DNA of 64,000 nucleotides, from assembly GCA_964652195.1 (NCBI GenBank), contig CAZZBB010000012.1, positions 36,537-100,536 of the forward strand. Direction: 5' to 3'. The translations under genes were made by a program, and so were the position numbers. The DNA is from an uncultured bacterium (GTDB taxonomy: Bacteria; Poribacteria; WGA-4E; WGA-3G). Position 1 is the stretch's first letter. Each line of letters opens with the position of its first letter. The notes beneath the pieces are model-generated. The model had not been told where the DNA came from, did not search any database, and saw nothing but the letters and a program-made list of their open reading frames with translations. Below, piece after piece: positions 6,822 through 29,367 of the stretch.

Positions 6822-6947
6822 CACGGAAATTTAAATCCTTCAAGAAAATCCTTATTCGTACATACTAAACTCCAATTATAACCCAAATTATTTGCCATTT
6901 TATCAGGTGTATGGTATCCTATATCTTCAAGGAGGAGTACCAAACCT

Positions 6948-7706: not shown

Positions 7707-7721
7707 TTTCTATCTTAGTAT

Positions 7722-9626: not shown

Positions 9627-9644
9627 AGGAAAGAGTTATAATAA

Positions 9645-10640
9645 GTGTTAGATTTTCGTGAACGTTTAAATCTTGATATTCCTATTTTATATGATGGTGG
9701 TTTCGGTTCACAGTTATTTGCCCGGAATATTCAACTTGCTAATAGTGCGATAGCAAATGAATCACATCCTAACGATGTAGTTGGTATTCATTCTGATTAT
9801 ATTATTGCTGGTGCGGAAGCGATTGGAACAAATACTTTTGTCGTTTCTCCGCTTCACCTTGAAATAACAGATCAAGATGAATCTGAGGCTGAACGTCTAA
9901 CTCGACTTGCAGTGCAGCATGCAAAGTCTGCAGTAGAAAAACACGAAAAACATGTATATATCTCAGGTTCGGTAGGTCCATCCCCTGGCGCAATAGAGGC
10001 AGATAGCGGAGATACGACATTTGGTATTGCAAATGATAAAGTTCGTGAAGCTCATAAACTTGTTATCAATACGCTTGTAGATGAAGGGGTTGATTTTCTA
10101 TGTTTAGAAACAATGTTTTCTGCTAAAGAAGCTGCAATTGCTGTTGATATAGCAAGAGAAACAGGTCTACCAATAGCTGTAAATTTAACATATAAATGGA
10201 CAAAAGAACGTCGAACTGGGCAGGAAATATATAAGACAGACTGGGGACATAGTGCTCTTAACCTACTCGAAATTCTATCAAGTGGGGAGTTTTCCAATGG
10301 CGACTCACTTGTGGATTATGTTGATATAATAGGCTTAAATTGTGGTGCTGAATCTAAACTTGACGAACATACTGGCATGCCTTATGCAATCAAGGGTACA
10401 GAACAACTTAGAGATGCCATGATAAGTATGGGTATTAAGGGTAAAAAGATGATGGCATATCCCAACGCTGGAATGCCTATTCTTGATAAGGACTATAAAA
10501 CTGTATATACGCAAACACCAGCGGACATGGCAAAATATGTACCTGAATTAGTAGATGTTGGTGCATACTTTATTGGTGGATGCTGTGGGACAACTTCCAG
10601 TCACATTGCTGCATTCAGAAAAAGTATGGATTCACTATAG
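9645..10640 (+). CDS. Homocysteine S-methyltransferase (Pfam S-methyl_trans) domain protein, putative methylcorrinoid:thiol methyltransferase
   Basis: GTG start. ILYDGGFGSQL parallels MetH/BHMT ILDGxMGTxL. HSDYIIAGAEAIGTNTF parallels MetH HxxYxxAGADIIETNTF. The Zn-ligand motifs GLNCG and GGCCGTT are present. Confidence 0.7.
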   Translation: MLDFRERLNLDIPILYDGGFGSQLFARNIQLANSAIANESHPNDVVGIHSDYIIAGAEAIGTNTFVVSPLHLEITDQDESEAERLTRLAVQHAKSAVEKHEKHVYISGSVGPSPGAIEADSGDTTFGIANDKVREAHKLVINTLVDEGVDFLCLETMFSAKEAAIAVDIARETGLPIAVNLTYKWTKERRTGQEIYKTDWGHSALNLLEILSSGEFSNGDSLVDYVDIIGLNCGAESKLDEHTGMPYAIKGTEQLRDAMISMGIKGKKMMAYPNAGMPILDKDYKTVYTQTPADMAKYVPELVDVGAYFIGGCCGTTSSHIAAFRKSMDSL

Positions 10641-13251: not shown

Positions 13252-13384
13252 GATTAATTCATCACATGGTGTTAATCGTGACAATATCAGGTCATTAAAA
13301 ATTATTTTAACTTTTTACTATCCTTTTATTTTATAGGTGACTCTATATTTTCAAAGTGCCTATAAAATATTGAGGAGATTAATC

Positions 13385-13945
13385 ATGAGTATTGACCGTG
13401 AAATTAGAACAGAAATACGTAAAATAGTAAGGATGTTAGAAGCAACTACACGATTTCTTGAAAAACCTTCTGTGACAGACAATTTTTCTGATGGTGAAAA
13501 TCGATGCATTCTACAGTTTAATAACGCCTTAAATCGTCTTTATGAATTAGAAGCATTACCGGAAGGATTTTTCCAACCTTTAGATAGCAATGCCTCTGTT
13601 GGTGACATTGGTTATGCATATCATCAAGTTGCAATCTATCTAAAAGAAGGAACGGGGATTGAATTCGACTTTGATATTCAAGAGGCAAAAAGAACAATTG
13701 GAGATGAGATGAAGAATTTAGGGGATATTTTCACTCGTTCCTTTTTTAGCGATAAAGAAAGGGGTTCATCCGAAACTGATGGTCCTGAAAATGTTGAAAT
13801 AGTGGACGATGATGATATAACTGTAGAATCAGTAGAACCACGACTGGACAAGCTGGAAGAACAGATGGAAACTGTCGTAGAGATCCTTCAAGAACTTCGA
13901 TCCAAAAAGGAAAAGAAGGAAGAGAAGAAGGATGATAAAAAGTAG
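13385..13945 (+). CDS. Hypothetical protein with acidic/Lys-rich C-terminus
   Basis: An internal ATG at 13385 is preceded by GAGGAG; the ORF track starts at 13337. The C-terminus is KKEKKEEKKDDKK. No recognisable domain. Confidence 0.45.
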   Translation: MSIDREIRTEIRKIVRMLEATTRFLEKPSVTDNFSDGENRCILQFNNALNRLYELEALPEGFFQPLDSNASVGDIGYAYHQVAIYLKEGTGIEFDFDIQEAKRTIGDEMKNLGDIFTRSFFSDKERGSSETDGPENVEIVDDDDITVESVEPRLDKLEEQMETVVEILQELRSKKEKKEEKKDDKK

Positions 13946-14147: not shown

Positions 14148-16055
14148 CTACCAATGTTTAAATGAATACATTCGCTCACCTAAAGATAAACCTAAGATCG
14201 CCCATATAGTTCCCATTACAAATTCACCCAACATTGCTCCTAAGAAGAGAGGTAGTGTTTTTCTATATGCACCGATTCCTCCGTGACGAACAATTATTGT
14301 CTTGATAGTCCAAGCAAGGAAGACTGGAAACCACAGTCTTCCAAAGTTCCAATTTCCGGCAAGTGGATAAGCGAGTGGGTGTAGTTGCCACCAAAGAAAC
14401 TTAATTCTCATCAATAATGTGCATATTGTTAATATGACACCAAATCCAAAGAAACCGAGATGTCTCCATTCCGTTTCACTTGGAATAGTTAACCAACGTT
14501 GTAGATCATTAAATGCTTCTTGTCCCCGCCAGGTTCCTATACTGCCATGAAGATAACCCGCATGAAGAAATGCAACGAATCCAATTAACAAACCGATCAC
14601 TGACGATCCCCACATCACCCACAGAAGTTGTTTATTATTTATGGAACCTTTTTCGGCTAATTTGAAGCCTTCAAGTTGATTTGGCATAGGTTGTGAACGG
14701 TAATTTCGAGTGAATCCGTATAAGAATGAAAATCCTGTTAGTGTTTGTGCTCCAATTTTTCGGGACCCGAAAATGGATGTTAGGAAGAAACTTGGTCCAG
14801 CACGATAAAAGTCTTGGGTAGGTGTACCAAGTTCAGCTCTCATTCGTGTAAATGCCAAAACTAATATAAAGTGAATACTAAAGAAACCAAGAATCCCCCA
14901 CCATGACATTCCCGCTTTGAGACAAAAACCAAACACTATAGCAATACTCATAAGAAACCCTATGAATGCACCTCTGTATCCTATTGGTTCGTGGGACATG
15001 TCAAGATCGTTTCTTAATCCGATAATTTTCTTGAATACTTTCCATAAATGTTTGTGAGTAACCCATAATGCAAAAAAGCATAAGGCAAAATAAGCACCGA
15101 GTGATTGCATATCAATGTGAGGATATCCTGGGGTTTGATTTAATCCCGTAATTGAACCAAATATGAGCTGTACTTTCCAAAACAGATAAAAAACCCAACA
15201 TGATAATGATAAACCAAGCGGCATCAAGAAACCTATTCCTATCGCATAAGGATTAAGGTGTATAGGGGTTGAGCCGATAGCATTAAACGGTTTTTCAGTA
15301 AACATTCTTCCAATATCATGTCTAATTGGTATTCCCGGTATCACTGGAAATAGAAAATTGAGTCCATTCAATAGGTCAAGTCCCAGTCCAATGCCAATAC
15401 CTATCCATAATAATCGGCTTCGATAGAAACCGCTCCCTGTTGTCATCTCATAAGGAAGTAGGATAATAGGATAACTGAGTTTTTCATGTTCAATCCACTG
15501 CTTCCGGAGAATTACACTCAGCATTATCATAGAAAATGCTAATGCTGAAAAGAATACTAACCAGTGTATTATAGGTGTAATCCATGCTTGAATATGATCT
15601 ATCTCAAAGAAATTGGATGTTCCTTCATAATAACCAGTAAGAGCATTTCGATCCATAACGGCAATCCAGTCCGGTATGTATCGAAAAAACAGTGATTGCC
15701 ATTCATTTTCGGGGGTTGCAAACCAACTTGCGTGACCCAGAATGCACATAGTTGCTTGCAATAAATCGTGTCCACTGACAACACATGCTAAGGTTACCAT
15801 TAGGTAAACAGTGAGCATTTCTGCCTGTGAGAACTTCCATTTTGGCAGGTATTTAATTAGAAACAGATTTAGGATTGTTAGGATGAAGAGCGTGAAGACG
15901 GCGTTGAAGAAGATCGCCATCGTAGTAGGGTATTGTGTTGTCCAGACAGTCTCTGTTTGAACAACCAGATAGATATTAAGTGGAAGTGAAAGTAGTCCAA
16001 TTAGAATAGAACGTAATGTGATATTTTCTGTTGATAAGACAGATGATTTTAACAT
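14148..16055 (-). CDS. Large polytopic integral membrane protein, unknown function
   Basis: 635 aa with more than 14 hydrophobic segments and many Trp/Gly-rich loops. It is the last gene of a minus-strand envelope cluster. Confidence 0.6.
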   Translation of the reverse strand: MLKSSVLSTENITLRSILIGLLSLPLNIYLVVQTETVWTTQYPTTMAIFFNAVFTLFILTILNLFLIKYLPKWKFSQAEMLTVYLMVTLACVVSGHDLLQATMCILGHASWFATPENEWQSLFFRYIPDWIAVMDRNALTGYYEGTSNFFEIDHIQAWITPIIHWLVFFSALAFSMIMLSVILRKQWIEHEKLSYPIILLPYEMTTGSGFYRSRLLWIGIGIGLGLDLLNGLNFLFPVIPGIPIRHDIGRMFTEKPFNAIGSTPIHLNPYAIGIGFLMPLGLSLSCWVFYLFWKVQLIFGSITGLNQTPGYPHIDMQSLGAYFALCFFALWVTHKHLWKVFKKIIGLRNDLDMSHEPIGYRGAFIGFLMSIAIVFGFCLKAGMSWWGILGFFSIHFILVLAFTRMRAELGTPTQDFYRAGPSFFLTSIFGSRKIGAQTLTGFSFLYGFTRNYRSQPMPNQLEGFKLAEKGSINNKQLLWVMWGSSVIGLLIGFVAFLHAGYLHGSIGTWRGQEAFNDLQRWLTIPSETEWRHLGFFGFGVILTICTLLMRIKFLWWQLHPLAYPLAGNWNFGRLWFPVFLAWTIKTIIVRHGGIGAYRKTLPLFLGAMLGEFVMGTIWAILGLSLGERMYSFKHW

Positions 16056-16079
16056 ACATCATTATCTATATAATTACAT

Positions 16080-18002
16080 TTAAAATGCACGTTCAATTCC
16101 ATAAAATAGGTGAGGTCTAATTGAGTTAGGGGGTGTTGGATCAAGTGGAAATGCCACTTCAATTCTGAATATACCTGCATCACTAACCTTAGCAAAACTT
16201 CCACGTAAGCCAAATCCTATGCCACGTTTTACATCCTGAATATCAAATGCATTCTCACTATCCCATATATAACCAAAATCTACAAAGGAGGTTAAACTCA
16301 TAATTAAGCCAAGATCTATGATGCGGTTCTTAACAAATGGTTTAGCAATATATGTAGCAGCCTTGGTTAGACCGTTATTTATACTATTAAAAATTGATCC
16401 TCCACATAACGTTCGACTTTCTAAACTAAAAACCATCATTTTCTCACCGCTAAACTCCCTGAAAGCATATCCTCGTAAACCATTATCTGCACCCAATAGA
16501 ACTTGACTTTCACCTCCCCAGCCATACTGCATTTCAGATTTAAACTGGAATACAATTGTCTGATGAAAATCGATTAATCCGTTCTTTCGAAATCCCTTAT
16601 CAACTCTATAAATATCACCAGTATTGAAGATATCTCGAAAATAAAATGTACAATGGGATTGTATATCAGAATGTTCAATCCGGTCTGTAAAACCGGTAGA
16701 AAATCCTATCAATCCAATGGCAAATAATCTATCTATACTTTCCCATCCTGAGTTAAACACGAGGGATGTGAATGTCTTGTTTCTCTCAGATCCATATATA
16801 GGTGATGAATAACCAACTGATAAATTATATAATGACCCTGTAACAAAATCTTCATCTCCACCCATCGCCCTTAGAAACCGTGTCTGATGGAATCCAATGT
16901 TTCTTCTACCAAGAGTAATACCTACCCGTTTTATATCATGATCTGATGGAGATGCTCTGGATTGGCCTACAGATTCTAAAGACTGAAAATTCGTTTGTAT
17001 GGAATCGAACCAAACCCCTATATAATTCTGATGATGTCGATCTCCAAAATATCGTATTATGTTCCCCGATGCCTTATTACGTGTTTCTTCAAAGGTATCA
17101 GTTCTTATCCCTTGTTCATACCATCGAACTTGATTGATTAGTTCAGAAATCCCAAATCTGGCACTCCAGCGACTCATTAGTGAGTATTGAGGACGTTCTA
17201 ACAACACACTCCAGGAATCCCCTTCTCGACTCTGAATATATTGTCCATCAAAGTCTAAATAAGAATCGAAAAGTCGAGGTATTCTATATTTCATTGTTAC
17301 AAAACCTCGTGTTTTTTCTCCAACTTCACTGATTCTTTCATATCTAATTTGACTACCTTGTCCCGATCCGAATAAATTGGTTTCTTTCATCTGTAAAAGA
17401 AAATACCCAGTTTGATTGTTAATTCCTGGGTCAAATGCACCTGTCAATGAAAAAAACTCAATAACTGTGACATCAATTACAACACCTTGTAAATCTTCAT
17501 TCCATTCAGACTCAATCTTTGCTGCCCCAATATAAGGTTTTTGTCTTAATATTCTTTCGCTTTCTTTCCTATCTGCTTCTACATAGACTTTATCTTTCTT
17601 GAGAAGTAGTTCTCTCAAAATTACATTTTCTTTAGTCTTTGTGTTTCCCGTTACAGTAAATGAACGAATTTTCCCTTCATCTATTATTAATCTTATGAAT
17701 ACTTCATCATTAATGATATTGGGTGACTCTACTACTCTAACATATAGGTAACCCTTATTACGGTAAAATTTCGTTATTCTATCAGTATCATTTTTTATTG
17801 AATCCTCATCATAGATTTCGCCAATTTCCACATCCATTAATTGCAGAATCTGTTCTTGATTGAAGGATTGATTTCCAGATAAAACAATACTTTTTATCCT
17901 AATGTGGTGATTTGCTAAAACAGGTTGTTTTAGTAAGTAGAATACTCCAAGGATCATAATACTCGAAAAAGTAAGTTTAGAGATATATTTAAATGTATTC
18001 AC
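16080..18002 (-). CDS. Omp85/BamA-TamA family outer-membrane protein (POTRA + beta-barrel)
   Basis: Signal peptide, POTRA-like repeats (IKSIVLSGNQSF...; FTVTGNTKTKENVILREL) and a C-terminal barrel ending in the aromatic residue ...FYGIERAF. Confidence 0.75.
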   Translation of the reverse strand: MNTFKYISKLTFSSIMILGVFYLLKQPVLANHHIRIKSIVLSGNQSFNQEQILQLMDVEIGEIYDEDSIKNDTDRITKFYRNKGYLYVRVVESPNIINDEVFIRLIIDEGKIRSFTVTGNTKTKENVILRELLLKKDKVYVEADRKESERILRQKPYIGAAKIESEWNEDLQGVVIDVTVIEFFSLTGAFDPGINNQTGYFLLQMKETNLFGSGQGSQIRYERISEVGEKTRGFVTMKYRIPRLFDSYLDFDGQYIQSREGDSWSVLLERPQYSLMSRWSARFGISELINQVRWYEQGIRTDTFEETRNKASGNIIRYFGDRHHQNYIGVWFDSIQTNFQSLESVGQSRASPSDHDIKRVGITLGRRNIGFHQTRFLRAMGGDEDFVTGSLYNLSVGYSSPIYGSERNKTFTSLVFNSGWESIDRLFAIGLIGFSTGFTDRIEHSDIQSHCTFYFRDIFNTGDIYRVDKGFRKNGLIDFHQTIVFQFKSEMQYGWGGESQVLLGADNGLRGYAFREFSGEKMMVFSLESRTLCGGSIFNSINNGLTKAATYIAKPFVKNRIIDLGLIMSLTSFVDFGYIWDSENAFDIQDVKRGIGFGLRGSFAKVSDAGIFRIEVAFPLDPTPPNSIRPHLFYGIERAF

Positions 18003-18050
18003 GATTTCTACCTACAAAACATTAGTGGTGATAAATTATGATACAGTCTT

Positions 18051-20114
18051 CTATGAGATAACATTTACACGATTAGAGAGAAACCCTTCAACTAACAAAA
18101 GACATACTGTCAAAAGTAACAACTCACCCCAGATTTCTCGACCATGTCTATACAAATCTAAGGATTTAGAATCAAATTCCTCATCTTCTAAGGAATGTGT
18201 TTGGGCATTAATCTTTTGTGAGGCTTCTTTTAAACTAATATGTTCTAAATTTGATTCAGATGGATGTGTATTTACTGCGAAGAATTCTCTATAAAGATTT
18301 CCATGTGATGATAAGTCTACTTGATATATCCCTGGCTGTTCAGTTGAATTATAATTCAATGAGCCATCTTCTTGGATAATAACAGCAGTTCCTTCATTCT
18401 CATCTATTGAATCCACACGTTTAATCCAAACAGGAGTTCCTATTAGGTTATTATTTTTTTTAGTATAAGGTTCACCTACTAAAATATTCCTTTGTGTTTC
18501 ATCGTAGCTGGCATATAAGACTGTATTTTGTAACAAAGGCAGAAAATATGGATTAAGTAAAAGCTCATTTCTTCTTGAATCACTATCAAGAGAAACATTA
18601 AAGAAGATAATCCTACTGTTCTTCTCTTGCTTCTCAATTAGGAAAGGTGTATCGTCATCAAAACTTGCAATTATATTTGAGTCATTAGATAAATCTGTTG
18701 TCATTCCACGATAGAATTGTGGGGCATATTGTCCAGACAAGACACCTTCGTCGAAAATCTCAAAAATGGGATGTGTTTTATCATATTGGATAATTTTCCT
18801 GGGTCTATCCCATTCTTCAACTTGATTAAATTCTGCTGGTGCCCATGTTAAGTTACTTTTTTTAGATACAAATGCAATTATATCTTTACCTTGTCGGATA
18901 AATTCCTTAATCTTTAAATCAGATTTCTCTGATATAGATGAGACATCAGTCAAGAGTAGAATATCAATATTATCAAGAGGATATTCATCGAATTCAGATA
19001 TGTAACATGCTATAGGTTGGATCATAGAATTTTTATTTTGTCCTACACTTTCAGATGAATTGAATAAAGGGTTCAAAGACAAGATTAGAAACTCATTATT
19101 ATCGCTTACACAAAGCACACGAATATCACCCAATACCTTAAAAACGAAATATCGTTTATTATCAATATTTAGCCGGTCTGAGGTTAACTCAAATGATCCT
19201 ATATGGAATCCTGGAGTTGGAAAGTTATGACTAATCGACTTAGTAATCAATTCATTTGGATGTGCTGAAAAGGATTGTTCTATTTGTTTTTTATTTTCTG
19301 TATACATTGAAAGTGTTGTTTGGGTTAATGGTGTATCTGAATGATTATTGGTTTTGATATTTAAGTATAATGGTAAATCTACACCTATTAGTTGATGGGA
19401 TGGAGATATTTCTTCAATATCTGTATTATGAGAATTGTTACTACTTACTGTAATAAGTAAAATCCGTGAACCTGAGATATTGGGTATTTGTCCCCAATTC
19501 TCCCATCCTTTTTTTGTAAAATCAGAGATTATATAAAGTTCCTTGTTTGTTTGATTTGACTTCAATAGAATCTTGTGAGCCATTTCAATACTGGATTGAA
19601 CATTAGTTCCTCGATTTGAAACTTGTGTGTCATTTAAGGTTGAAATTACACCATTAATATCAGGAGTGAGTTCTCTATAGATTGGCTTCGGAATGTCTGA
19701 CATTAATATTACGGAAGCAGAATCTCCATTTCTTAATGAACTTAGGATTTCATTCGCTTTTTTCTTTGCTTTATCATACCAAACCCCGTCTACATCTTGA
19801 TAAGCCATACTGAATGAATTATCTAAAACAATTACGACATCGGTCTTTGCTCGGACTGCCGCAAGAGGTAAACCAAGGGTGAGGAAAGGACGGGCAAGAG
19901 CGAGTGCAATAAATGCAATAATTAACATTCGCAAAAGGAGTATTAGAAATTGTTTTAATTGGAGACGTTTTACGTTTTGTCGATGAGCAGTAACAAGGAA
20001 CATTAGGCTGCTAAAATCAATGGTAACTGCTTGACGTCGATTCCAAAGATGAATTATAAGAGGTATTCCAGCAGCTAATAGGCCAAACAAAAATAGAGGA
20101 TTTAAAAATGCCAA
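18051..20114 (-). CDS. BatA-like protein: N-terminal double-TM domain + von Willebrand factor A domain
   Basis: MAFLNPLFLFGLLAAGIPLIIHLWNRR matches the TIGR02226-type N-terminal domain. The vWA MIDAS motif is VVIVLDNSFSM. Confidence 0.75.
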   Translation of the reverse strand: MAFLNPLFLFGLLAAGIPLIIHLWNRRQAVTIDFSSLMFLVTAHRQNVKRLQLKQFLILLLRMLIIAFIALALARPFLTLGLPLAAVRAKTDVVIVLDNSFSMAYQDVDGVWYDKAKKKANEILSSLRNGDSASVILMSDIPKPIYRELTPDINGVISTLNDTQVSNRGTNVQSSIEMAHKILLKSNQTNKELYIISDFTKKGWENWGQIPNISGSRILLITVSSNNSHNTDIEEISPSHQLIGVDLPLYLNIKTNNHSDTPLTQTTLSMYTENKKQIEQSFSAHPNELITKSISHNFPTPGFHIGSFELTSDRLNIDNKRYFVFKVLGDIRVLCVSDNNEFLILSLNPLFNSSESVGQNKNSMIQPIACYISEFDEYPLDNIDILLLTDVSSISEKSDLKIKEFIRQGKDIIAFVSKKSNLTWAPAEFNQVEEWDRPRKIIQYDKTHPIFEIFDEGVLSGQYAPQFYRGMTTDLSNDSNIIASFDDDTPFLIEKQEKNSRIIFFNVSLDSDSRRNELLLNPYFLPLLQNTVLYASYDETQRNILVGEPYTKKNNNLIGTPVWIKRVDSIDENEGTAVIIQEDGSLNYNSTEQPGIYQVDLSSHGNLYREFFAVNTHPSESNLEHISLKEASQKINAQTHSLEDEEFDSKSLDLYRHGREIWGELLLLTVCLLLVEGFLSNRVNVIS

Positions 20115-20201
20115 TAGAGATTTACTCCGTAATGTCCTTGATAATTTAGATGTCTAAGATTATTATCATGAAGATTTAAATTATCTATCCTGATAAACAG
20201 T

Positions 20202-21695
20202 TTACTCTCGGATATTAATTTCAAGTTGATTCATTGTTCGAAAACTACCTTCAGTAAATTCTATCATTGTATTTGATTCAAGGACACTACCCCCAAGCTG
20301 GATATGGTTAGCATCTGCAATATCCTGACCAATAGAAGGATCCATCTGTACCCATCTTCCAACATATACCTCTGGCCAGAAATGGTAATAGAATCCACCC
20401 CCAGTAAGGATTAATCCGGTACATATTCTTGATGGAATCCCGACAGAACGAGCTAATGCAATGAATAAGACCGTATGTTCTGTACAATCGCCGGATTGTG
20501 TTTTAAGTGTTGCCAGTGAAGTACTATATCCACCACTTAGATTCTTATCAATAATAGTCTTGTAAACCCAATCAGATAATTTTTTTGCTGCCTTCCAGGA
20601 GTTTACATCGCCATTAATTACTAATTCAGCTTTTTTCTTGATTTCTTCACTATCTGATTCTATATATGTACTTGGAGAAAGAAATACATCGAATTCTGTA
20701 TTCTGTATTGGTAAATCTAAACAATTTGTTTCATCTATATCTGACACATGTATACTTAATACACCGGAACGCTCATCATTCAATTCGAGACTTTGTCTAT
20801 GATTATCTACAACAGTCTCAATTAAATTGCCTCTTGTAAGCTTTAGTTCAGCCACAAGACGAGATGTACCGGGTTTAGATTTTTTACCTGTAGGTATAAT
20901 CCTACTTTTCAACATGATATCTATTTCATCGGTTTTACCAATAGCAGTAGTTCTGTCAGTTTTTGTTGTCACCATTGCAAAACCCATCATATCAGTTGAA
21001 TTCTTGAATGTAATTCCATCTTCAGTGATCCAGATACGGCTATTAATTCCTCCAAGAATATCCAGTTTTGTTTCAATAAGAAATACTTCCAAGTCTTCAG
21101 ATTGGTAAGTCAGATTATCTTTGCCTATCACATTCAGTTTAGCTTCAACTGGCTTAAGTAAATCAAAGCTGAATGTATGAATGTTTAGTTTTTCACCGGC
21201 TCTTAGTTTATTATTTGTTATTAGATGTTCTACAGCGGCTGATTCTGAAATTGTATCATTAGGGATTTCCACTTCGACTTTTGTAGTTTTGCCATTCAGT
21301 GTTGTTGAAATGTAGGCAATGTTATCTATAATTTTTCCTTCAGTATGTTTCTCACCTGATTCATTTGAAGTAGAGAAAAAATAGCGGGGTTTTAATTCTG
21401 AATCTAAGTATTCAATTCGGTTCGTCTCAATAGTGAATTTCTTTCCTAAACCAGATAGTTCCATATTAATATCTGTTTTAATTCGCAACATTTCTTCATT
21501 ATTGTATATAGTTTTTTCCAAAAAAGTATGGACAAATCCGATCTTCTTGTTCATCATCTGTAAATTGTACCAATGTTCTTGAGACTTTTCGAACATCATA
21601 TCAAAATCCACTTTATCCTTATCCACAGAACTGACATTTTGTATTAGCATCATGAAGCAAAATATAGATAACCCTATGATTGTATACAATTTCAT
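20202..21695 (-). CDS. Transglutaminase-like cysteine-protease-fold protein, secreted
   Basis: Signal peptide. Cys-His-Asp core: GDCTEHTVLFIALARSVGIPSR, YHFWPEVY, WVQMDPS. Confidence 0.75.
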   Translation of the reverse strand: MKLYTIIGLSIFCFMMLIQNVSSVDKDKVDFDMMFEKSQEHWYNLQMMNKKIGFVHTFLEKTIYNNEEMLRIKTDINMELSGLGKKFTIETNRIEYLDSELKPRYFFSTSNESGEKHTEGKIIDNIAYISTTLNGKTTKVEVEIPNDTISESAAVEHLITNNKLRAGEKLNIHTFSFDLLKPVEAKLNVIGKDNLTYQSEDLEVFLIETKLDILGGINSRIWITEDGITFKNSTDMMGFAMVTTKTDRTTAIGKTDEIDIMLKSRIIPTGKKSKPGTSRLVAELKLTRGNLIETVVDNHRQSLELNDERSGVLSIHVSDIDETNCLDLPIQNTEFDVFLSPSTYIESDSEEIKKKAELVINGDVNSWKAAKKLSDWVYKTIIDKNLSGGYSTSLATLKTQSGDCTEHTVLFIALARSVGIPSRICTGLILTGGGFYYHFWPEVYVGRWVQMDPSIGQDIADANHIQLGGSVLESNTMIEFTEGSFRTMNQLEINIRE

Positions 21696-22027
21696 ATTTA
21701 CACCTCTAAAGTGTGCAATTTTATTTTTTTGGATTTGTTATTATCTTGTTATACCATTTCTGATAATTAAAGTCACTTTAATGTAGCATAAACTTTCAGT
21801 TTATACCGTATTTCAATATCTGCATTACTACTATTCAAAGGTTGTTTGATACTGCCTAACCTAAAAGTTATGGATAAAAAAGAGACAGTTTCATTCAGAA
21901 ATAAGATTAGAACTCATAGTCGTAAATTGAACATTTAATCCTAAATTCTTAGATGATAAATCGTGAAAATGTTGTGTTTTTCCCGGTGGCGAAAAAGTGA
22001 CGAAAAAGGGGAAAAGTTACACTTTTT

Positions 22028-22044
22028 GACACATTGTGTGTCAT
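22028..22044. promoter_or_regulatory. Perfect palindrome TGACACA-N3-TGTGTCA (operator-like)
   Basis: Seen directly. It lies in the 860-bp non-coding region upstream of the minus-strand envelope cluster. It is flanked by repeated AAAAAGTG/CACTTTTT and TTGACA motifs. Confidence 0.3.
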
Positions 22045-22318
22045 TGAAATTGGTGTAAATTACCCCTCTAACCTCTGTCATAGACTGACTTTATCCCACT
22101 TTGAATTGACTATATAAGAATTTCCAAAAAGTGTGATTTTGTGTTTTTGTTGTCCTTACGGATTTTGTATTTTTCAAACTGCATATTAAAGCTGATTTTT
22201 TGACATAAAGTATATTTTGTATTTAGGACGTTTTTATAGATAGTCATCATTAATTCTCTTATTATTTACTTCCCATTAAGGTGGCGAATTCCATACTCGG
22301 ATTCGGCGTTGATTTGGT

Positions 22319-22336
22319 GAATGCTAAACAGCATTC
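22319..22336. repeat. GAATGC-loop-GCATTC hairpin repeat (family member)
   Basis: GAATGCTAAACAGCATTC. Related copies lie at 34358-34375 (GAATGCCTTAGGGCATTC) and 37922-37939 (degenerate). Confidence 0.45.
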
Positions 22337-22557
22337 ATACCGCTGATTCATTGATTTCACTCTTAGTTTGCGTGAAAAAGATGTACAAACTGGATGTTTG
22401 TGCTAAAAAGTAGCTTTTGGTAATGTTAGTTGTTAGCTATAGATATATTCTTCATTTTATTTTCAATTTTTTAGAAAAATGTGTAAAATCATCATTTGGT
22501 AGGGTTAACACTAATAGCAATTATTTTACTGTCTTTACAAGATGATACCATGAGAAA

Positions 22558-25606: not shown

Positions 25607-26107
25607 ATGAAATATCAATTGGTAATCCAAGACCTTAGTATACCGGTGCCAGGTGTACCTTCGTGGAGTATACCCTTATGTTCTAACCATAACGTTTACT
25701 TTGGTTGCTTAGGGCATATAGCCGAGGAGGATATAAAAACAAACCGTATAGATAGCCAATTTTATAATGGAGAAGATACAGCTATCGTCTTAGATATTGA
25801 TATAGATGCCAAAGTCGTGAGACACACCTGTTTGGCCCGTAAAAAAGAGACGACTGTGCAGTCAACAGTGGCGTTGGGTATAGGTGATGATATAGTGGAT
25901 GCGGGGGCTAAATTCACAGTAGGTCAGACGACGTATATAGCGATAACCGAGAGTGTAAAAGAGACGGTTAATACCCCTGTGGTTTCGCTAAGAGATAGTG
26001 TATATGCCGGCGTAGATTTTGATCGTCGTGCGCTATGCTCTGCCCACGCGGATTTTGATTTTGAGGGCAATGATTTTGACGAAGGTTCGGTCTGGTATCA
26101 GCCTTGA
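25607..26107 (+). CDS. Hypothetical protein
   Basis: An internal ATG at 25607 follows an AGAGG RBS; the ORF track starts at 25523, but a strong hairpin at 25544-25575 falls inside that longer ORF. No recognisable domain. It is the first gene of the GC-richer island. Confidence 0.4.
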   Translation: MKYQLVIQDLSIPVPGVPSWSIPLCSNHNVYFGCLGHIAEEDIKTNRIDSQFYNGEDTAIVLDIDIDAKVVRHTCLARKKETTVQSTVALGIGDDIVDAGAKFTVGQTTYIAITESVKETVNTPVVSLRDSVYAGVDFDRRALCSAHADFDFEGNDFDEGSVWYQP

Positions 26108-26172
26108 ATAACTTTTAGATGCGACTTGGCACCCCGGTTTATACTGTCGGGGTACCCTAAAGTAGAATTCCC

Positions 26173-27792
26173 ATGAGAATAAAACATGCTTTTACAATAC
26201 TTTTTGTTATCCTCTTTGGCATTAGTGTTTTTATCTTTTTACGAAGTTCTAATGTCCTTCCCAATGGTGATAAACTTGTCTTTCTCAATGGTGATAAACT
26301 GAAACCGAGAACTCCGGATGGTCCTGTCTCCACGTTAGAAAAAGCGGCGCGTGTGGCGTTGCATCCACTCGCAGCAGATTGGAAAACAGTTGAAGCAGCA
26401 ATGAAGCAGCGTGTTTTATCTTGGGAGGATTGGGCTCGGAAAACAGTTGAAATCGGGTGTGCGATGGACGTGCTGTATGGACATATAAACACCCCTGAAG
26501 AGGTTGCAGCGGCACGCGAAAAACAGTTAGCGATACAACTGAAATGGGCTGCCGACTGTGAATCTAGAGGGTCTATTCTTCCTAACTATCCTTTTGAGAT
26601 TCCGAAGGTTTCCCCTAAGAAGCGGTTTGACTACGAAGGACCTCAGACGAGCGAAGCACTGCTGGCAGCGTTTGATCGGAAGTGGATGGAACGTTATCCG
26701 CAATCGGTGGATTGGGACGCACATTATCCCAAAGCCGCCTGGATTGACCGAATTGTGAGTCTGGGCGGTGAAGTCCAAAGTTACGGCGATTATAGTTTTT
26801 ACCTTAAATTGCGCAGAGACCTTATCAAACACAAAGAGTCCCCGCACAAATGGCATAGTGGGGCGTTCGGTATCCCTCCAACAACGAACTTTGAGGAATA
26901 CGAAACAGGCTATATCAATAGAAAGATTTGGGAAAATGATATACGCAAAGAGGTTCGCTCTAACTACCCTGACGAGCCCAAGATTACAACCTATTTCCCC
27001 AGTGATCAACCTGATAAATACCTTCCTGTAGTAGGTAACATGACGTATGTCTACAGAAAGCCGAATAGCAGTGCAGTGAGAACCTATGGTAAATTGCTGA
27101 CTGATGAAGAGGTAAAGGACCTGAGAAATAAAGGCATAGAACCGAAGGATGTTGAAATTGTCTACATTGATGACGAATACAATGTCCTTACCGAAAAACC
27201 GAAACCCTATAACCATCAAGAGTGGTTAGAAAAAAACTCTTATGACATTGTCCCCGAAGGACTCCGTGCGCCGGATGGCACCATCGTGTCCCCTGAGCGT
27301 TATCAGGAAATAAGAGGTCAAGAGATGCCTTATGAGACGCGGCAAAGGTATGATGAATATATCGGTGATTCCCCTGCTGCTGTGGATCCTGCTGCTGCTG
27401 AGGCGGAACGCCGAGCCGTATTAACCCGCGAAGCTGCCCGTGCGGAATTTGAACGATTTAAAGAGGATATGCGCCAAATAGAAAAGTTTCAGTCTATGGC
27501 AGCAAACGAGGTATCCCGTAAGTTTGCGTTGGAGTTTCTGTCTCAATACACGCCGAAGTCCGCCACGGATAAACGGCTCCAAACGGCACTGCAAACGATG
27601 TTTCAACGTGGGTTTGATGACGGGCTGCACAGCCTGCGAAAAGACGACCCTGCCCTGGCAGCAGAGTTAGAACGGCAGCTTGCCGAAACATACAGACCAC
27701 CACAACCGCAGTTGCGACGACTAAAGACCGTGCCCCAAAAGACCGTGCCCCCTAATCCAGCGGAGACACCTCCCGCAGGGGATACGGACTAA
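26173..27792 (+). CDS. Hypothetical 539-aa protein with N-terminal membrane anchor
   Basis: Long ORF with about 50% GC and a hydrophobic N-terminus (AFTILFVILFGISVFIFL). The antisense strand also carries long ORFs, as expected for GC-rich DNA. No motif recognised. Confidence 0.5.
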   Translation: MRIKHAFTILFVILFGISVFIFLRSSNVLPNGDKLVFLNGDKLKPRTPDGPVSTLEKAARVALHPLAADWKTVEAAMKQRVLSWEDWARKTVEIGCAMDVLYGHINTPEEVAAAREKQLAIQLKWAADCESRGSILPNYPFEIPKVSPKKRFDYEGPQTSEALLAAFDRKWMERYPQSVDWDAHYPKAAWIDRIVSLGGEVQSYGDYSFYLKLRRDLIKHKESPHKWHSGAFGIPPTTNFEEYETGYINRKIWENDIRKEVRSNYPDEPKITTYFPSDQPDKYLPVVGNMTYVYRKPNSSAVRTYGKLLTDEEVKDLRNKGIEPKDVEIVYIDDEYNVLTEKPKPYNHQEWLEKNSYDIVPEGLRAPDGTIVSPERYQEIRGQEMPYETRQRYDEYIGDSPAAVDPAAAEAERRAVLTREAARAEFERFKEDMRQIEKFQSMAANEVSRKFALEFLSQYTPKSATDKRLQTALQTMFQRGFDDGLHSLRKDDPALAAELERQLAETYRPPQPQLRRLKTVPQKTVPPNPAETPPAGDTD

Positions 27793-27982
27793 ATGAAGCA
27801 TCTGATACATTGGAGCAGCCTCGTGCTGCTCCTTATCGGGGTGCGGACTACTTCTATAGCCGGACCACTACAGACGTAGCTTCTCTGTGAGTACGTCACT
27901 GGGATGAGATAGACGTGGCGGCTATCCAAAGAGACTATCAACCTTAGAGACAGAAGAACAGATATCAGAGTATCTGCTGTGG

Positions 27983-28845
27983 GTGCTTCTCTTTGTACCG
28001 ACACTTTACCTCTTTTCACCGCCCTATCGTAGTGGCGGGGGATGGACAACCCATGCCACCGCTTTTTTACTCGCCTCCCCTATCGTCATGCTACTGCTAC
28101 GCACCGGACGGTATTTTCTGACACGCACACAGCACCCCTTTGCAAAGGTTGTCACAGAAAAGATGTCCGCACGCGGTATCTCACTGGTTCTCTGTGCCAT
28201 ATGCATCCTCAGCGGAATTGCTTATATCGTGCTTGTGCGGGATACATTTTGCACAGGATACACCAATATCAAGAACACGTATCTAACGCGACGACAGAAC
28301 AAAAACCATTAGATTTTCTAAAAACATACAACGTGACACACATACTTCTCAGTGAAGAAGATGTGCTGAACATCGCTTCTCTGCACACGGATGAACAAGA
28401 CGAATACCTAACTTCTATGGTGAGACTACTGCCACGCTCTTATACCGGCAGTACACATGCCAGATTGATACCGGCACACAAAAAAACGTTGCTCAGTTTT
28501 GTGGAGATCGATTTCTATCACAAACCAACTACCGCCACAGCAAAACTAAAAAACGGTAAAACAGTAAATATCGGATACGTCAAGTCCGATAGCACAGCAG
28601 AGAAAAAAAATGAAAAATACGGGGGAATGCTACATCTATTCGATCCAAAAACACACCAAGAAGCCATATACTACCTATCCCCGCAGATTTGGAATAGTTT
28701 CGCTATCAAACTATTTTTCCGAAACCAATATAGCAAAGCGTTTGTGCCCGTATATCCACAACAAACAGGAAACGCAAAAGTCAAAATATGGGAGATACAG
28801 TATCCGACAGATATAAATGAAAATCTGAAATATCTCGAAAGGTAA
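27983..28845 (+). pseudogene. Probable frameshifted gene (hypothetical membrane protein)
   Basis: ORF 27983-28312 reads as a membrane N-terminus. ORF 28042-28845 is protein-like only after about 28300 (KPLDFLKTYNVTHILLSEEDV...). Its first 80 codons are His/Arg/Cys-rich out-of-frame noise. A +1/-1 shift near 28290-28315 would join the two halves. Confidence 0.35.
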
Positions 28846-29358
28846 ATGAAAATGATACGCATCTTGAAACAATGCTGCATATATGGCGGGATCCTTTTCT
28901 TTGGACTTGTCATTACAAATGCGACACTACAACGATTGGTAAAACCAACACCGATAAAAGTGTACGTGATACCGAAAACAGAAAAGAAAGAATATATAAA
29001 AAGAAATACAAAACTCTATGAACACCTAAAACCGAAACCGATTGACCGGCAGAAAGTATTTGATAACACAATCATTGAGAATAACATCTTCGCACCCCTC
29101 GGATACAAACCGCCCAAAAAAACACACACTTATAGACTCGTCGGAACACAGATACCAATCGGGAGAGAAACAGAGGCAATAGCGATATTACAAGAGACCA
29201 CCGGCGAGAAAAATATGCTGAGCGTTTCCATCGGAACAAAAATAGCACAGGACACAGTGGTCATGGACATAAAACCCAAGCAGATAATCATCAAAAAAGG
29301 GAATAGACGGACCCTCCTGAGGTTAGAGACATGGCTACTCCTAAATAACAGAAGGTAG
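28846..29358 (+). CDS. Hypothetical single-TM protein (weak GspC/PilP-like pattern)
   Basis: N-terminal TM (CCIYGGILFFGLVI). The C-terminal region RLVGTQIPIGRETEAIAIL...IIIKKGNRRTLL is reminiscent of GspC/PilP beta-domains. Low confidence. Confidence 0.4.
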   Translation: MKMIRILKQCCIYGGILFFGLVITNATLQRLVKPTPIKVYVIPKTEKKEYIKRNTKLYEHLKPKPIDRQKVFDNTIIENNIFAPLGYKPPKKTHTYRLVGTQIPIGRETEAIAILQETTGEKNMLSVSIGTKIAQDTVVMDIKPKQIIIKKGNRRTLLRLETWLLLNNRR

Positions 29359-29367
29359 GCACACAGC

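What the first reader, a model, noticed from the sequence alone, without database searches (positions are those of the whole stretch)
14148..21695. Four-gene envelope cluster: transglutaminase-like, BatA-type vWA, Omp85 and a 635-aa polytopic membrane protein
The genes are co-directional and tightly spaced, with gaps of 24-87 bp. A secreted transglutaminase-fold protein, a double-TM vWA (BatA-like) protein, a POTRA/beta-barrel Omp85 and a large membrane protein of unknown function form an apparent operon. A long regulatory region lies upstream. Bat operons normally pair BatA with MoxR, DUF58 and TPR proteins, not with Omp85 and a transglutaminase. This combination could be a distinct surface-assembly or protein-crosslinking system.
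Basis: partly seen in the sequence, partly recalled or inferred. Interest (0 to 1): 0.55.

Follow-up and report, generated by a model that had tools for sequence, protein, structure and literature searches.

The report
VWA membrane protein paired with Omp85
The four envelope genes are real and sit together in nearly all Poribacteria, but only two of them stay linked in more distant relatives (a periplasm-facing inner-membrane VWA protein and a short BamA-like outer-membrane barrel), and the "unknown" 635-aa protein has the fold of an OPT/Yellow-Stripe transporter.

Summary
Four co-directional minus-strand genes lie at 14148-21695, with gaps of 87, 48 and 24 nt. They encode a secreted transglutaminase-like protein, a BatA-N/VWA membrane protein, a 2-POTRA Omp85 and a DUF6785/DUF6784 polytopic protein. 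The organism is a Candidatus Poribacteria bacterium.

The interpretation as one four-gene system is only partly supported. All four genes occur in the same order in 71 of 75 informative Poribacteria species genomes. However, the unrelated flanking genes are conserved almost as well. The TGase or DUF6785 gene has been lost separately in four genomes.

In more distant relatives (Omp85 27-46% identical) only the BatA/VWA-Omp85 pair survives. It is adjacent in 10 of 10 loci with upstream DNA, next to unrelated neighbours, and never near MoxR or DUF58.

More remote BatA/VWA homologues sit in classical MoxR-DUF58-BatA operons without an Omp85.

The best reading is a previously undescribed two-gene, probably envelope-spanning module. 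In Poribacteria it has a TGase-like enzyme and a transporter as lineage-specific neighbours.

The "long regulatory region" is a synteny breakpoint that carries a dispersed repeat.

The parts
18051..20114 (-). Core gene 1: a 687-aa inner-membrane protein. It has an N-terminal double-TM BatA/TIGR02226 hairpin, a periplasmic VWA domain with an intact MIDAS site, a CARDB-like beta-sandwich, a ThuA/class-I-glutamine-amidotransferase-like domain, a second beta-sandwich and a C-terminal TM helix.
   Evidence: Pfam and NCBIfam hits. Hydrophobic segments at 3-21, 56-74 and 661-679. AF2 model with pLDDT 83. Foldseek matches to BatB 3ibs, BatA 4jdu, ThuA-like 2gk3/4jqs and CARDB 2kl6. MIDAS residues D98, S100, S102, T170 and D198 are at least 97% conserved in 79 orthologues. 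The loop 22-55 is rich in Arg/Lys, so by the positive-inside rule the large domain faces the periplasm. This is the topology shown experimentally for Borrelia BB0173 (PMC5700661).
16080..18002 (-). Core gene 2: a 640-aa BamA-like Omp85 outer-membrane protein with a signal peptide, two POTRA domains and a large beta-barrel.
   Evidence: POTRA hit of 67.9 bits in two stretches. A profile of 42 orthologues matches BamA POTRA4-POTRA5 and the start of the barrel in PDB (E 4e-23), against TpsB at E 2e-4. GLRGY 508-512, F573-x-D575-x-G577 and the terminal F640 are at least 97% conserved. Distant orthologues reach Pfam Omp85 PF01103 over the whole barrel (L101: 45 bits against a cut-off of 24). The gene is adjacent to the BatA/VWA gene in all 80 Poribacteria loci (partly cut by a contig end in L043 and L071) and in 10 of 10 distant loci.
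20202..21695 (-). Lineage-specific neighbour: a 497-aa secreted transglutaminase-like (papain-fold Cys-His-Asp) protein with a beta-rich N-terminal domain that weakly resembles DUF3108.
   Evidence: Transglut_core at residues 361-453 (72 bits) and DUF3108 at E 1e-3, below cut-off. PDB 3isr, a putative cysteine protease, matches at E 1.5e-7. C404, H438 and D452 are at least 97% conserved in 76 orthologues. The gene is absent or decayed in L026 and L082, and is not found next to the pair in distant loci.
14148..16055 (-). Lineage-specific neighbour: a 635-aa DUF6785+DUF6784 polytopic membrane protein with the OPT/Yellow-Stripe-like secondary-transporter fold.
21696..22557 (.). Upstream non-coding region, which is a synteny breakpoint. 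All other Poribacteria examined, including the nearest relatives, have methyltransferase, ADH and TolB-like genes here.
   Evidence: The TolB-like, ADH and methyltransferase genes are absent from the whole window.
21934..22267 (.). Dispersed non-coding repeat inside the upstream region. A second copy lies at 59589-59912 in the opposite orientation.
   Evidence: blastn gives 79% identity over 336 bp, E 2e-76. Two independent assemblies of this locus (L001, L002) break 231-238 bp upstream of the TGase start, exactly at the edge of the repeat.

Best explanation
The functional unit is a two-gene module, not a four-gene system.

Gene 1 (18051-20114) encodes a protein anchored in the inner membrane at both ends. 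It exposes a VWA(MIDAS)-CARDB-ThuA-like-beta-sandwich array to the periplasm. Gene 2 (16080-18002) encodes a BamA-like Omp85 outer-membrane barrel whose two POTRA domains also face the periplasm. The two genes are usually tightly spaced or overlapping and have stayed adjacent across deep divergence.

I infer that the two proteins meet in the periplasm, with the POTRA domains docking on the VWA/MIDAS array. This would form an envelope-spanning complex comparable in logic to TamA-TamB. In such a complex the Omp85 barrel would insert or anchor a client at the outer membrane, and the VWA protein would couple that to the inner membrane.

The module is a MoxR/DUF58-less offshoot of the widespread MoxR-DUF58-BatA/VWA (Bat-type) systems.

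In sponge-type Poribacteria two further envelope genes have settled next to it. Upstream is a secreted transglutaminase-like Cys-His-Asp enzyme, which may process or cross-link a periplasmic or surface partner. Downstream is a highly conserved OPT-fold secondary transporter, which most likely works independently as an importer.

Shown: gene content, domain architecture, conserved catalytic and binding motifs, linkage patterns and predicted folds. Inferred: membrane topology, physical interaction, and any role in assembly or tethering.
For: 1. Linkage beyond the clade. Relatives of the Omp85 at 27-46% identity (L091-L104) always have a full-length BatA/VWA gene (29-48% identical, query residues 1-682) immediately upstream, in 10 of 10 loci with upstream DNA. 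The surrounding genes are unrelated and differ between lineages: STAND NTPase, a restriction-modification methylase, GFO_IDH, an aminotransferase, a sigma-54 activator, or opposite-strand genes on both sides.
2. Tight spacing. Across 79 Poribacteria loci the BatA-to-Omp85 gap has a median of -1 nt (interquartile range -4 to -1). It is at most 100 nt in 74 of 79 loci. The medians are 139 nt for TGase-to-BatA and 28 nt for Omp85-to-DUF6785.
3. Natural losses. L026, L034, L047 and L082 lack TGase and/or DUF6785 but keep BatA-Omp85.
4. Subfamily split. BatA/VWA proteins scoring at least 648 bits against a profile of the four distant Omp85-linked BatA proteins form one group. It includes the proteins of the Omp85-linked loci L101 and L097 and several proteins that NCBI names Candidatus Poribacteria. 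The contexts of its other members were not checked. Five contexts were examined among those scoring 465 bits or less. Three are MoxR-DUF58-BatA-(~800-aa 3-TM protein) operons. None has an Omp85.
5. No MoxR or DUF58 lies within 10 kb of any Omp85-linked locus or in the window.
6. Complementary localisation. The TM pattern 3-21/56-74/661-679 with a basic loop places the large domain in the periplasm. This matches the experimentally mapped BatA-type protein BB0173 (PMC5700661). POTRA domains are periplasmic by definition.
7. Intact functional motifs under selection: MIDAS, the Omp85 loop-6 RGY motif, the FxDxG motif and the terminal Phe.
8. The DUF6785 protein has a transporter fold, and its paralogues are unlinked to the module.
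Against: - No direct evidence of interaction or co-transcription exists. In the window itself the BatA-Omp85 gap is 48 nt, not an overlap.
- The gap statistics use the longest possible ORF for the downstream gene, which can exaggerate overlaps.
- Only about 17 distant loci were recovered, and their taxonomy is unknown. Several relatives are labelled Poribacteria by NCBI. 'Beyond the phylum' is therefore not established, only beyond the sponge-type clade.
- TGase and DUF6785 are retained next to the pair in 71 of 75 genomes, and the closest outgroup locus (L096) also has DUF6785 downstream. A functional tie in Poribacteria cannot be excluded.
- No substrate for the Omp85 has been identified.
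Confidence: 0.55

Rival explanations
1. All four genes form one dedicated envelope system. In this view a periplasmic TGase modifies or cross-links a client, the VWA protein and the Omp85 place it in or on the outer membrane, and the DUF6785 protein supplies or removes a small molecule.
For: The four genes are in the same order and strand in 71 of 75 informative Poribacteria species genomes. The block stayed intact when its upstream flank was rearranged in the window genome and when the downstream flank differs in L008. The Omp85-to-DUF6785 gap has a median of 28 nt. TGase-like genes are known partners of MoxR/DUF58 VWA systems (papers found, plus own knowledge of Pseudomonas TgpA).
Against: Unrelated flanking genes are conserved at similar rates. 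TGase or DUF6785 were lost separately in four genomes. Neither gene accompanies the pair in the distant loci, apart from DUF6785 in L096. DUF6785 paralogues work in unrelated contexts. The TGase-to-BatA spacing has a median of 139 nt.
Confidence: 0.15
2. There is no functional coupling at all. These are four independent envelope genes kept side by side by the generally high synteny of Poribacteria genomes.
For: A region of about 20 kb around the block is syntenic in most of the 80 genomes. No operon signals exceed chance.
Against: The BatA-Omp85 adjacency persists at 27-35% Omp85 identity, where all other neighbours have changed. The pair shows near-zero or negative spacing in 74 of 79 loci.
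Confidence: 0.12
3. The Omp85 is the housekeeping BamA of Poribacteria with a reduced POTRA count, and its position next to BatA is incidental.
For: Its POTRA domains are most similar to BamA POTRA4-5. One copy per locus was found in about 110 Poribacteria genomes. One source (JGI) names an orthologue BamA. No other Omp85 was seen in the sequence available, but that covers only about 20 kb per genome.
Against: It scores 95.5 bits against the 297-bit cut-off of the BamA equivalog model TIGR03303 and matches only profile positions 242-494. It has two POTRA domains rather than five. It does not lie in a BamA-typical skp/lpxD neighbourhood. In the exhaustive search, BamA-sized proteins match only the POTRA region of the profile. 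Published 'BamA-like' 1-3-POTRA proteins always co-exist with a true BamA (PMC4104836).
Confidence: 0.1
4. The Omp85 is a two-partner-secretion-like exporter. In this view the 2-POTRA Omp85 (TpsB-like) exports the adjacent signal-peptide-bearing TGase to the cell surface.
For: It has two POTRA domains, as TpsB proteins do, and a POTRA_2 (ShlB-type) hit at E 1.6e-8. The TGase has a signal sequence and lies in the same gene array.
Against: The profile matches BamA POTRA domains far better than TpsB (E 4e-23 against 2e-4). No TPS or haemagglutination-activity domain was found in the TGase. The TGase is absent from distant Omp85-bearing loci and from L026 and L082, which keep the Omp85. The gene directly coupled to the Omp85 is the membrane-anchored BatA/VWA protein, not the TGase.
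Confidence: 0.08

Closest known systems
Bat (Bacteroides aerotolerance)-type MoxR-DUF58-BatA/BatB VWA operons, including Leptospira Bat and Borrelia BB0170-BB0176
   Same: The 687-aa protein has the BatA N-terminal double-TM domain (PF07584/TIGR02226) followed by a MIDAS-bearing VWA domain. Its VWA fold matches the BatB and BatA crystal structures 3ibs and 4jdu. Its three-TM pattern matches BB0173, which is an inner-membrane protein with a periplasmic VWA domain. Remote homologues of the whole 687-aa architecture sit in MoxR-DUF58 operons.
   Different: No MoxR ATPase, DUF58 or TPR Bat partner lies within 10 kb in about 100 Omp85-linked loci or in the 64-kb window. The partner is an Omp85 barrel instead. 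The protein is about twice the length of BatA or BatB and carries CARDB-like and ThuA-like domains plus a C-terminal anchor. The function of Bat systems is itself unresolved (PMC3557215).
TamA-TamB translocation and assembly module
   Same: Both have a short-POTRA Omp85 in the outer membrane encoded next to an inner-membrane-anchored protein with a large periplasmic part. In both, the gene pair is conserved as a unit. This is the closest analogy for how the module might work (own knowledge of TAM).
   Different: TamA has three POTRA domains, and here there are two. The partner is not TamB: there is no DUF490 or AsmA-like beta-taco, and a VWA/CARDB/ThuA-like array takes its place. No TamA chain appears among the PDB profile hits. 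The gene order is reversed, with the inner-membrane partner first.
'BamA-like' subfamily of the Omp85/TpsB superfamily (Heinz and Lithgow 2014, PMC4104836)
   Same: It has 1-3 POTRA domains and an Omp85-type barrel, is distinct in sequence from BamA, and has unknown function. The window protein fits this description.
   Different: The paper does not describe a conserved VWA/BatA partner gene. Whether Poribacteria also encode a true BamA, which is a property of that subfamily, could not be tested here.
OPT/YSL transporters (TC 2.A.67), for example barley Yellow Stripe 1 (7wsr/7wst)
   Different: Sequence identity is only 10-14%. There is no Pfam OPT hit at E up to 0.1 and no PDB sequence hit even with a profile. 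The protein is filed in Pfam as DUF6785/DUF6784 and its substrate is unknown. The contexts of Poribacteria paralogues (sulfatase, sugar dehydrogenases) hint at glycan-derived substrates rather than peptides or metal chelates.
MoxR-DUF58-transglutaminase clusters (Pseudomonas TgpA; the bifidobacterial PFNA cluster)
   Same: A transglutaminase-like Cys-His-Asp domain is encoded next to a VWA-type envelope protein (papers listed; TgpA from own knowledge).
   Different: Here the TGase is a soluble secreted protein with a beta-rich N-terminal domain, not a polytopic TgpA-type protein. MoxR and DUF58 are absent. The linkage is confined to sponge-type Poribacteria.
TpsB/TpsA two-partner secretion
   Same: There are two POTRA domains, and a weak ShlB-type POTRA hit.
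   Different: No TPS-domain cargo is present. The POTRA domains and barrel are closer to BamA.

Membership tests
Omp85 superfamily | At least one N-terminal POTRA domain | tested here: met
   PF07244 at 67.9 bits (cut-off 21.3) in two stretches, residues 35-110 and about 111-190.
Omp85 superfamily | C-terminal Omp85-type beta-barrel (PF01103) | tested here: met
   The window protein itself gives only weak hits (NF047779 at E 6e-6; TIGR03303 extends to profile position 494). Its orthologues in L101 and L093 match PF01103 end to end (45.2 and 24.2 bits against a cut-off of 24).
Omp85 superfamily | Conserved loop-6 (V/I)RG(Y/F) motif, the (F/G)xDxG motif in the barrel, and a C-terminal aromatic residue (motif definitions from own knowledge) | tested here: met
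   G508-L-R-G-Y512, F573-x-D575-x-G577 and F640 are at least 97% conserved in 81 sequences.
BamA (housekeeping, TIGR03303 equivalog) | Score above the curated equivalog cut-off, and five POTRA domains | tested here: not met
   95.5 bits against a cut-off of 297.15. Only profile positions 242-494 of 741 are matched, and there are two POTRA domains.
'BamA-like' Omp85 subfamily (PMC4104836) | 1-3 POTRA domains and a sequence cluster separate from BamA | tested here: met
   Two POTRA domains. In the exhaustive profile search, full-length matches are limited to about 12 representatives. BamA-sized proteins match only the POTRA region.
'BamA-like' Omp85 subfamily (PMC4104836) | Always present in addition to a true BamA in the same genome | not testable with these tools
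   Whole Poribacteria genomes could not be searched. No second Omp85 was found in the roughly 2 Mb of loci held, which is uninformative.
TpsB (two-partner secretion transporter) | An adjacent TpsA cargo with a TPS domain | tested here: not met
   No such domain was found in the TGase or other neighbours. TpsB is a far weaker PDB match than BamA.
TamA/TamB | Three POTRA domains and an adjacent TamB (DUF490/AsmA-like) partner | tested here: not met
   Two POTRA domains. The partner has VWA, CARDB and ThuA-like folds.
Bat-type (MoxR-DUF58-BatA/B) system | BatA N-terminal double-TM domain followed by a MIDAS VWA domain | tested here: met
   PF07584 at 72 bits, TIGR02226 at 77 bits and VWA_2 at 52.5 bits. 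D98-x-S100-x-S102, T170 and D198 are conserved.
Bat-type (MoxR-DUF58-BatA/B) system | A MoxR AAA+ ATPase and a DUF58 protein encoded in the same operon | tested here: not met
   tblastn with three MoxR and three DUF58 proteins finds none in the window or in any Omp85-linked locus. The Pfam tables of L007-L009 show none either.
Transglutaminase-like cysteine protease superfamily (PF01841) | Transglut_core domain with a Cys-His-Asp triad | tested here: met
   72 bits against a cut-off of 23. C404, H438 and D452 are at least 97% conserved. PDB 3isr matches at E 1.5e-7. Enzyme activity was not tested.
OPT/YSL transporter family | OPT fold (whole-chain structural match) | tested here: met
OPT/YSL transporter family | Sequence membership (Pfam OPT) and demonstrated transport | tested here: not met
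   No OPT family hit at E up to 0.1, and no PDB sequence hit with a 45-sequence profile. Transport cannot be tested here. The protein works like an OPT by fold but is not a sequence-defined member.

The most novel reading that the evidence does not exclude
The BatA/VWA protein and the 2-POTRA Omp85 form a previously unrecognised envelope-spanning machine. It would be a TAM-like module in which a MIDAS-bearing VWA/ThuA-like protein replaces TamB and no MoxR ATPase is needed. It would insert, display or tether a specific client at the outer membrane of Poribacteria and their relatives. In sponge symbionts the adjacent transglutaminase-like enzyme would covalently process that client.
Probability: 0.3. 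Interest if true: 0.7.

Novelty: new variant of a known kind. Interest (0 to 1): 0.45.

Why it matters
Omp85 proteins other than BamA, TamA and TpsB have almost no assigned partners or functions. Bat-type VWA systems are widespread, but their function remains unexplained.

A conserved, tightly coupled pairing of the two gives each a concrete candidate partner. It also gives a testable hypothesis: contact between POTRA domains and a periplasmic VWA array that bridges the two membranes.

The work also assigns a transporter fold to DUF6785/DUF6784. This Pfam family of unknown function is expanded in Poribacteria next to sulfatase and sugar-metabolism genes, which bears on how these sponge symbionts take up host-derived glycans.

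The limits are real. The organisms are uncultured, the module appears confined to a narrow set of lineages, and no substrate is known.

Tried and rejected
- Rfam scan of the window: no RNA family at gathering thresholds.
- Promoter and terminator scan: counts at chance level, uninformative for operon structure.
- Literature searches for DUF6785, for BatA+transglutaminase+Omp85, and for Omp85+POTRA+von Willebrand+operon: nothing relevant. Poribacteria+BamA: only incidental mentions.
- PDB sequence search with the DUF6785 profile: no hit. Fold comparison was needed.
- The hypothesis that MoxR and DUF58 lie elsewhere in the window (331-aa and 292-aa ORFs at 54.8-58.6 kb): rejected. They are an APH-type kinase and a MarR-type regulator.
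- The hypothesis that the 801-aa ORF at 42164-44569 is the canonical BamA: rejected. It is a PBP1C-type penicillin-binding protein.
- A 13-sequence alignment of distant Omp85 relatives was too divergent for the metagenome scan. A 6-sequence subset worked.
- L105 and L106, which carry weak 1-POTRA Omp85 relatives, have no BatA neighbour and belong to a different family.
- The ~800-aa proteins downstream of the classical MoxR-DUF58-BatA operons were tested as possible Omp85 analogues. They show no similarity and are 3-TM inner-membrane proteins.
- Cluster look-up for taxonomy of the distant BatA relatives gave almost no names.
- Search for a second Omp85 in all held loci: none, but coverage is too small to mean anything.
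- PADLOC defence-system models: no hit for any of the four proteins.

Full report
**1. Observation**

The window carries four minus-strand ORFs at 20202-21695 (497 aa), 18051-20114 (687 aa), 16080-18002 (640 aa) and 14148-16055 (635 aa). The gaps are 87, 48 and 24 nt.
- 497 aa: Transglut_core, 72 bits.
- 687 aa: BatA N-terminal domain/TIGR02226 plus VWA_2.
- 640 aa: two POTRA domains with weak BamA/Omp85 barrel matches.
- 635 aa: DUF6785 (522 bits) plus DUF6784 (102 bits).

Simple hydropathy gives an N-terminal signal-like segment in the TGase and three TM segments in the VWA protein (3-21, 56-74, 661-679). It gives at least ten TM segments in the 635-aa protein. The flanking genes are unrelated: HAD hydrolase and DUF5131 upstream, and a convergent 202-aa protein and DegT downstream. 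No MoxR or DUF58 gene exists anywhere in the 64 kb. Best hits are named Candidatus Poribacteria. Identical copies occur on two metagenome contigs.

**2. The 635-aa protein is a transporter-fold protein**

Sequence methods do not see this relationship. There is no Pfam OPT hit and no PDB profile hit.

The family is large: 1732 hits among the 8000 candidates scored. In Poribacteria, paralogues at 45-47% identity lie directly beside sulfatase, GFO_IDH_MocA, SDR and PhyH genes, with no BatA, Omp85 or TGase nearby. The protein is therefore best read as a secondary transporter that can work on its own.

**3. Conservation inside Poribacteria**

A genome scan seeded with an alignment of Omp85 orthologues found 110 relatives. 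The best 80 were kept, one per species-level genome. Seventy-eight are labelled Poribacteria and two (L071, L088) 'uncultured bacterium'.

All four genes occur in the same order in 71 of the 80 loci. Five of the other nine are cut by contig ends. Four are real exceptions:

| Locus | TGase | DUF6785 |
|---|---|---|
| L026 | 60-aa remnant | absent |
| L034 | present | fragments only |
| L047 | present | absent |
| L082 | absent | present |

The BatA/VWA-Omp85 pair is present in all 80 loci.

Identity to the window proteins:

| Protein | Identity to window |
|---|---|
| TGase | 45-86% |
| BatA/VWA | 46-87% |
| Omp85 | 46-88% |
| DUF6785 | about 80-97% |

The transporter is under much stronger constraint than the other three.

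This conservation is not specific to the block. Unrelated flanking genes are retained in 55-74 of the 80 loci: the 202-aa protein in 74, TolB-like in 72, methyltransferase in 71, DUF5683 in 67. DegT and ADH are each in 63, DUF402 in 57 and the S-methyltransferase in 55. Within-phylum synteny therefore cannot by itself prove a four-gene system.

Spacing is more informative. I took the longest possible ORF for each downstream gene. On that basis the BatA-to-Omp85 gap has a median of -1 nt (interquartile range -4 to -1) and is at most 100 nt in 74 of 79 loci. The medians are 139 nt for TGase-to-BatA, 28 nt for Omp85-to-DUF6785 and 134 nt for methyltransferase-to-TGase.

**4. Beyond the sponge-type clade**

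I ran an exhaustive profile search of 1.84 billion representatives with the Omp85 alignment. It collapses the Poribacteria orthologues into one representative (1053 bits). It then lists about a dozen full-length 2-POTRA relatives (190-650 bits, 27-41% identity). Below these come single-POTRA proteins of 510-590 aa, and BamA-sized proteins that match only the POTRA region.

A metagenome scan with six of the full-length relatives returned 17 loci. In every one that has upstream DNA, a full-length BatA/VWA gene lies immediately upstream of the Omp85. These loci are L091, L092, L093, L095, L097, L100, L101, L102, L103 and L104. The BatA/VWA genes are 29-48% identical to the window protein. The full-length ones span query residues 1 to 667-682. 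L100 and L103 hold only the C-terminal part because the contig ends.

No TGase is detected in these loci. DUF6785 follows the Omp85 only in L096, the closest lineage.

The neighbours are otherwise unrelated and vary between lineages:
- L091, L092, L102: opposite-strand genes on both sides.
- L093: a STAND NTPase upstream and a restriction-modification methylase downstream.
- L101: GFO_IDH and an aminotransferase upstream, and a sigma-54 activator downstream.

The Omp85 orthologues in L101 and L093 match Pfam Omp85 over the entire barrel. This settles superfamily membership.

**5. Relation to classical Bat systems**

A profile of four distant BatA/VWA partners retrieved 133 proteins. One group scores 648-1227 bits. 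It includes the L101 partner itself, proteins close to the L097 partner and several that NCBI names Poribacteria. The contexts of the rest of this group were not examined. There is then a drop to 465 bits or less.

Five contexts were examined among the lower scorers:
- P0484, P0506 and P0482 sit in MoxR-DUF58-BatA/VWA-(~800-825 aa) operons. Their downstream proteins are 3-TM inner-membrane proteins with no similarity to Omp85.
- P0479 (Zixibacteria) and P0477 have other neighbours.

None of the five has an Omp85. Conversely, no MoxR or DUF58 lies within 10 kb of any Omp85-linked locus. The Omp85-paired proteins are thus a derived branch of the Bat-type family in which the ATPase/DUF58 partners have been exchanged for an outer-membrane barrel.

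**6. Anatomy of the two core proteins**

*BatA/VWA protein.* The AF2 model (pLDDT 83) shows the following parts in order:
- two N-terminal TM helices;
- a VWA domain (about residues 91-222);
- a beta-sandwich (about 231-328);
- an alpha/beta domain (about 331-540);
- a second beta-sandwich (about 543-615);
- a C-terminal TM helix (662-685).

Foldseek matches the BatB and BatA crystal structures, ThuA-like/class-I glutamine-amidotransferase-like proteins (2gk3, 4jqs) and a CARDB domain. This agrees with the precomputed ThuA, CARDB and ABC_transp_aux Pfam hits on some homologues. The MIDAS residues D98, S100, S102, T170 and D198 are at least 97% conserved.

The loop between TM1 and TM2 is rich in Arg and Lys. 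By the positive-inside rule this puts the large array in the periplasm. That topology was shown experimentally for the BatA-type protein BB0173 of Borrelia (PMC5700661).

*Omp85.* A profile of the Omp85 matches BamA POTRA4-POTRA5 and the first barrel strands (E 4e-23), against E 2e-4 for a TpsB. It scores only 95.5 bits against the 297-bit BamA equivalog cut-off. The loop-6 GLRGY motif, the FxDxG motif and the terminal Phe are conserved.

It fits the 'BamA-like' subfamily of Heinz and Lithgow. That subfamily has 1-3 POTRA domains and unknown function, and was reported always to occur alongside a true BamA (PMC4104836). I could not test that last property.

**7. The TGase**

The Cys-His-Asp triad (C404, H438, D452) is at least 97% conserved in 76 orthologues. 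The core resembles a putative cysteine protease structure (3isr, E 1.5e-7). The N-terminal 330 residues give only a sub-threshold DUF3108 hit.

Its association with the pair is confined to sponge-type Poribacteria and is looser in spacing than the core pairing. TGase-like genes are known companions of MoxR/DUF58 VWA systems (papers; Pseudomonas TgpA from my own knowledge). A functional tie is therefore plausible but not shown.

**8. The upstream region**

In the nearest relatives (L010-L012, 82-88% identical) and in 71 of the 80 species genomes, a methyltransferase gene lies upstream of the TGase gene. It is usually preceded by ADH and TolB-like genes on the same strand.

These genes are absent from the whole window. 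The 862-bp gap therefore marks a rearrangement.

Positions 21934-22267 are 79% identical over 336 bp to 59589-59912 on the opposite strand. Shorter pieces recur at 42054-42125, 59244-59535 and 37917-37942. Two independent assemblies break exactly at the edge of the repeat. Nothing here demonstrates regulation.

The block of four stayed intact through this rearrangement. This is mild support for selection on the block, or simply reflects where the break fell.

**9. Mechanism**

*Shown:*
- a deeply conserved, tightly spaced gene pair;
- an inner-membrane protein with a MIDAS protein-binding domain and an outer-membrane barrel with POTRA domains;
- the absence of MoxR and DUF58.

*Inferred:*
- the two proteins meet in the periplasm and form an envelope-spanning complex analogous in logic to TamA-TamB;
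- the Omp85 barrel inserts or anchors a client, and the VWA array couples it to the inner membrane.

I give about 0.75 to 'functional pair' and about 0.45 to 'physical trans-envelope complex'. The four-gene single system, pure synteny, housekeeping BamA and TPS-like export of the TGase are the rivals, in decreasing order of my belief.

**10. Novelty and verdict**

No paper in the searched library links BatA/VWA proteins with an Omp85 or mentions DUF6785. The components belong to known superfamilies, so this is a new variant of a known kind rather than a new category.

Interest is moderate. The result offers a concrete partner for an orphan Omp85 class and for a branch of the enigmatic Bat family. 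It also assigns a fold to a DUF family. But it is confined to uncultured lineages, and the mechanism is inferred only from linkage and architecture.

Noticed in passing
window 21934-22267 and 59589-59912 (also 42054-42125, 59244-59293, 59503-59535, 37917-37942): A dispersed non-coding repeat: 79% identity over 336 bp between two intergenic regions in opposite orientation, with shorter related pieces elsewhere. Short matches also occur in intergenic DNA of other Poribacteria loci (L020, L030, L010). Two public assemblies of this locus break at the repeat edge. It could be a MITE-like element or a repeated regulatory or RNA element. No Rfam family matches.
   Followed up: partly
window 42164-44569 (-) and 44713-50151 (-): A PBP1C-type penicillin-binding protein (Transgly + Transpeptidase + BiPBP_C) lies next to an 1812-aa bacterial alpha-2-macroglobulin. 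This is the known A2M/PBP1c periplasmic defence pairing.
   Followed up: no
window 38083-39225 (-): A 380-aa protein fuses a TonB C-terminal domain to an FGE-sulfatase (formylglycine-generating-enzyme-like) domain. This is an unusual architecture in a sulfatase-rich phylum.
   Followed up: no
window 60162-61406 (-) and 61422-62837 (-): A DUF790 protein lies next to an XPB/ERCC3-like helicase with an XPB damage-recognition domain, a Bax1-XPB-type pair in a bacterium.
   Followed up: no
window 2802-10640 (+): A co-directional run of a BCCT transporter, TsaD, Sua5, a B12-binding corrinoid protein, a RACo reductive activase and a homocysteine-S-methyltransferase-type enzyme. It looks like a corrinoid-dependent methyl-transfer (possibly quaternary-amine demethylation) cluster, and it is conserved downstream of the block in most Poribacteria loci.
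   Followed up: no
window 26000-30000: GC content is 0.43-0.48 against 0.33-0.40 in the surroundings, and AT skew reaches +0.23 at 28-30 kb. ORFs 26173-27792 (539 aa) and 28042-28845 (267 aa) have no Pfam hit. The region may be foreign or otherwise unusual.
   Followed up: no
window 13337-13945 (+): A 202-aa protein with no Pfam hit lies convergent with the DUF6785 gene. It is conserved at this position in 74 of 80 Poribacteria loci (median 48% identity).
   Followed up: partly
L003, L004, L005/L006 (other Poribacteria): DUF6785/DUF6784 paralogues (45-47% identical) lie directly beside sulfatase, GFO_IDH_MocA, SDR, PhyH and Laminin_G_3 genes. In L005 the gene ends one base before a sulfatase gene starts. 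This suggests the family imports glycan-derived substrates in these sponge symbionts.
   Followed up: partly
L108, L109, L111: In classical MoxR-DUF58-BatA/VWA operons, the gene after the long BatA/VWA protein encodes an ~800-825-aa protein with no confident Pfam family. It has the same 2+1 TM-helix pattern as the BatA/VWA protein. It occupies the position that the Omp85 occupies in the Poribacteria-type module.
   Followed up: partly
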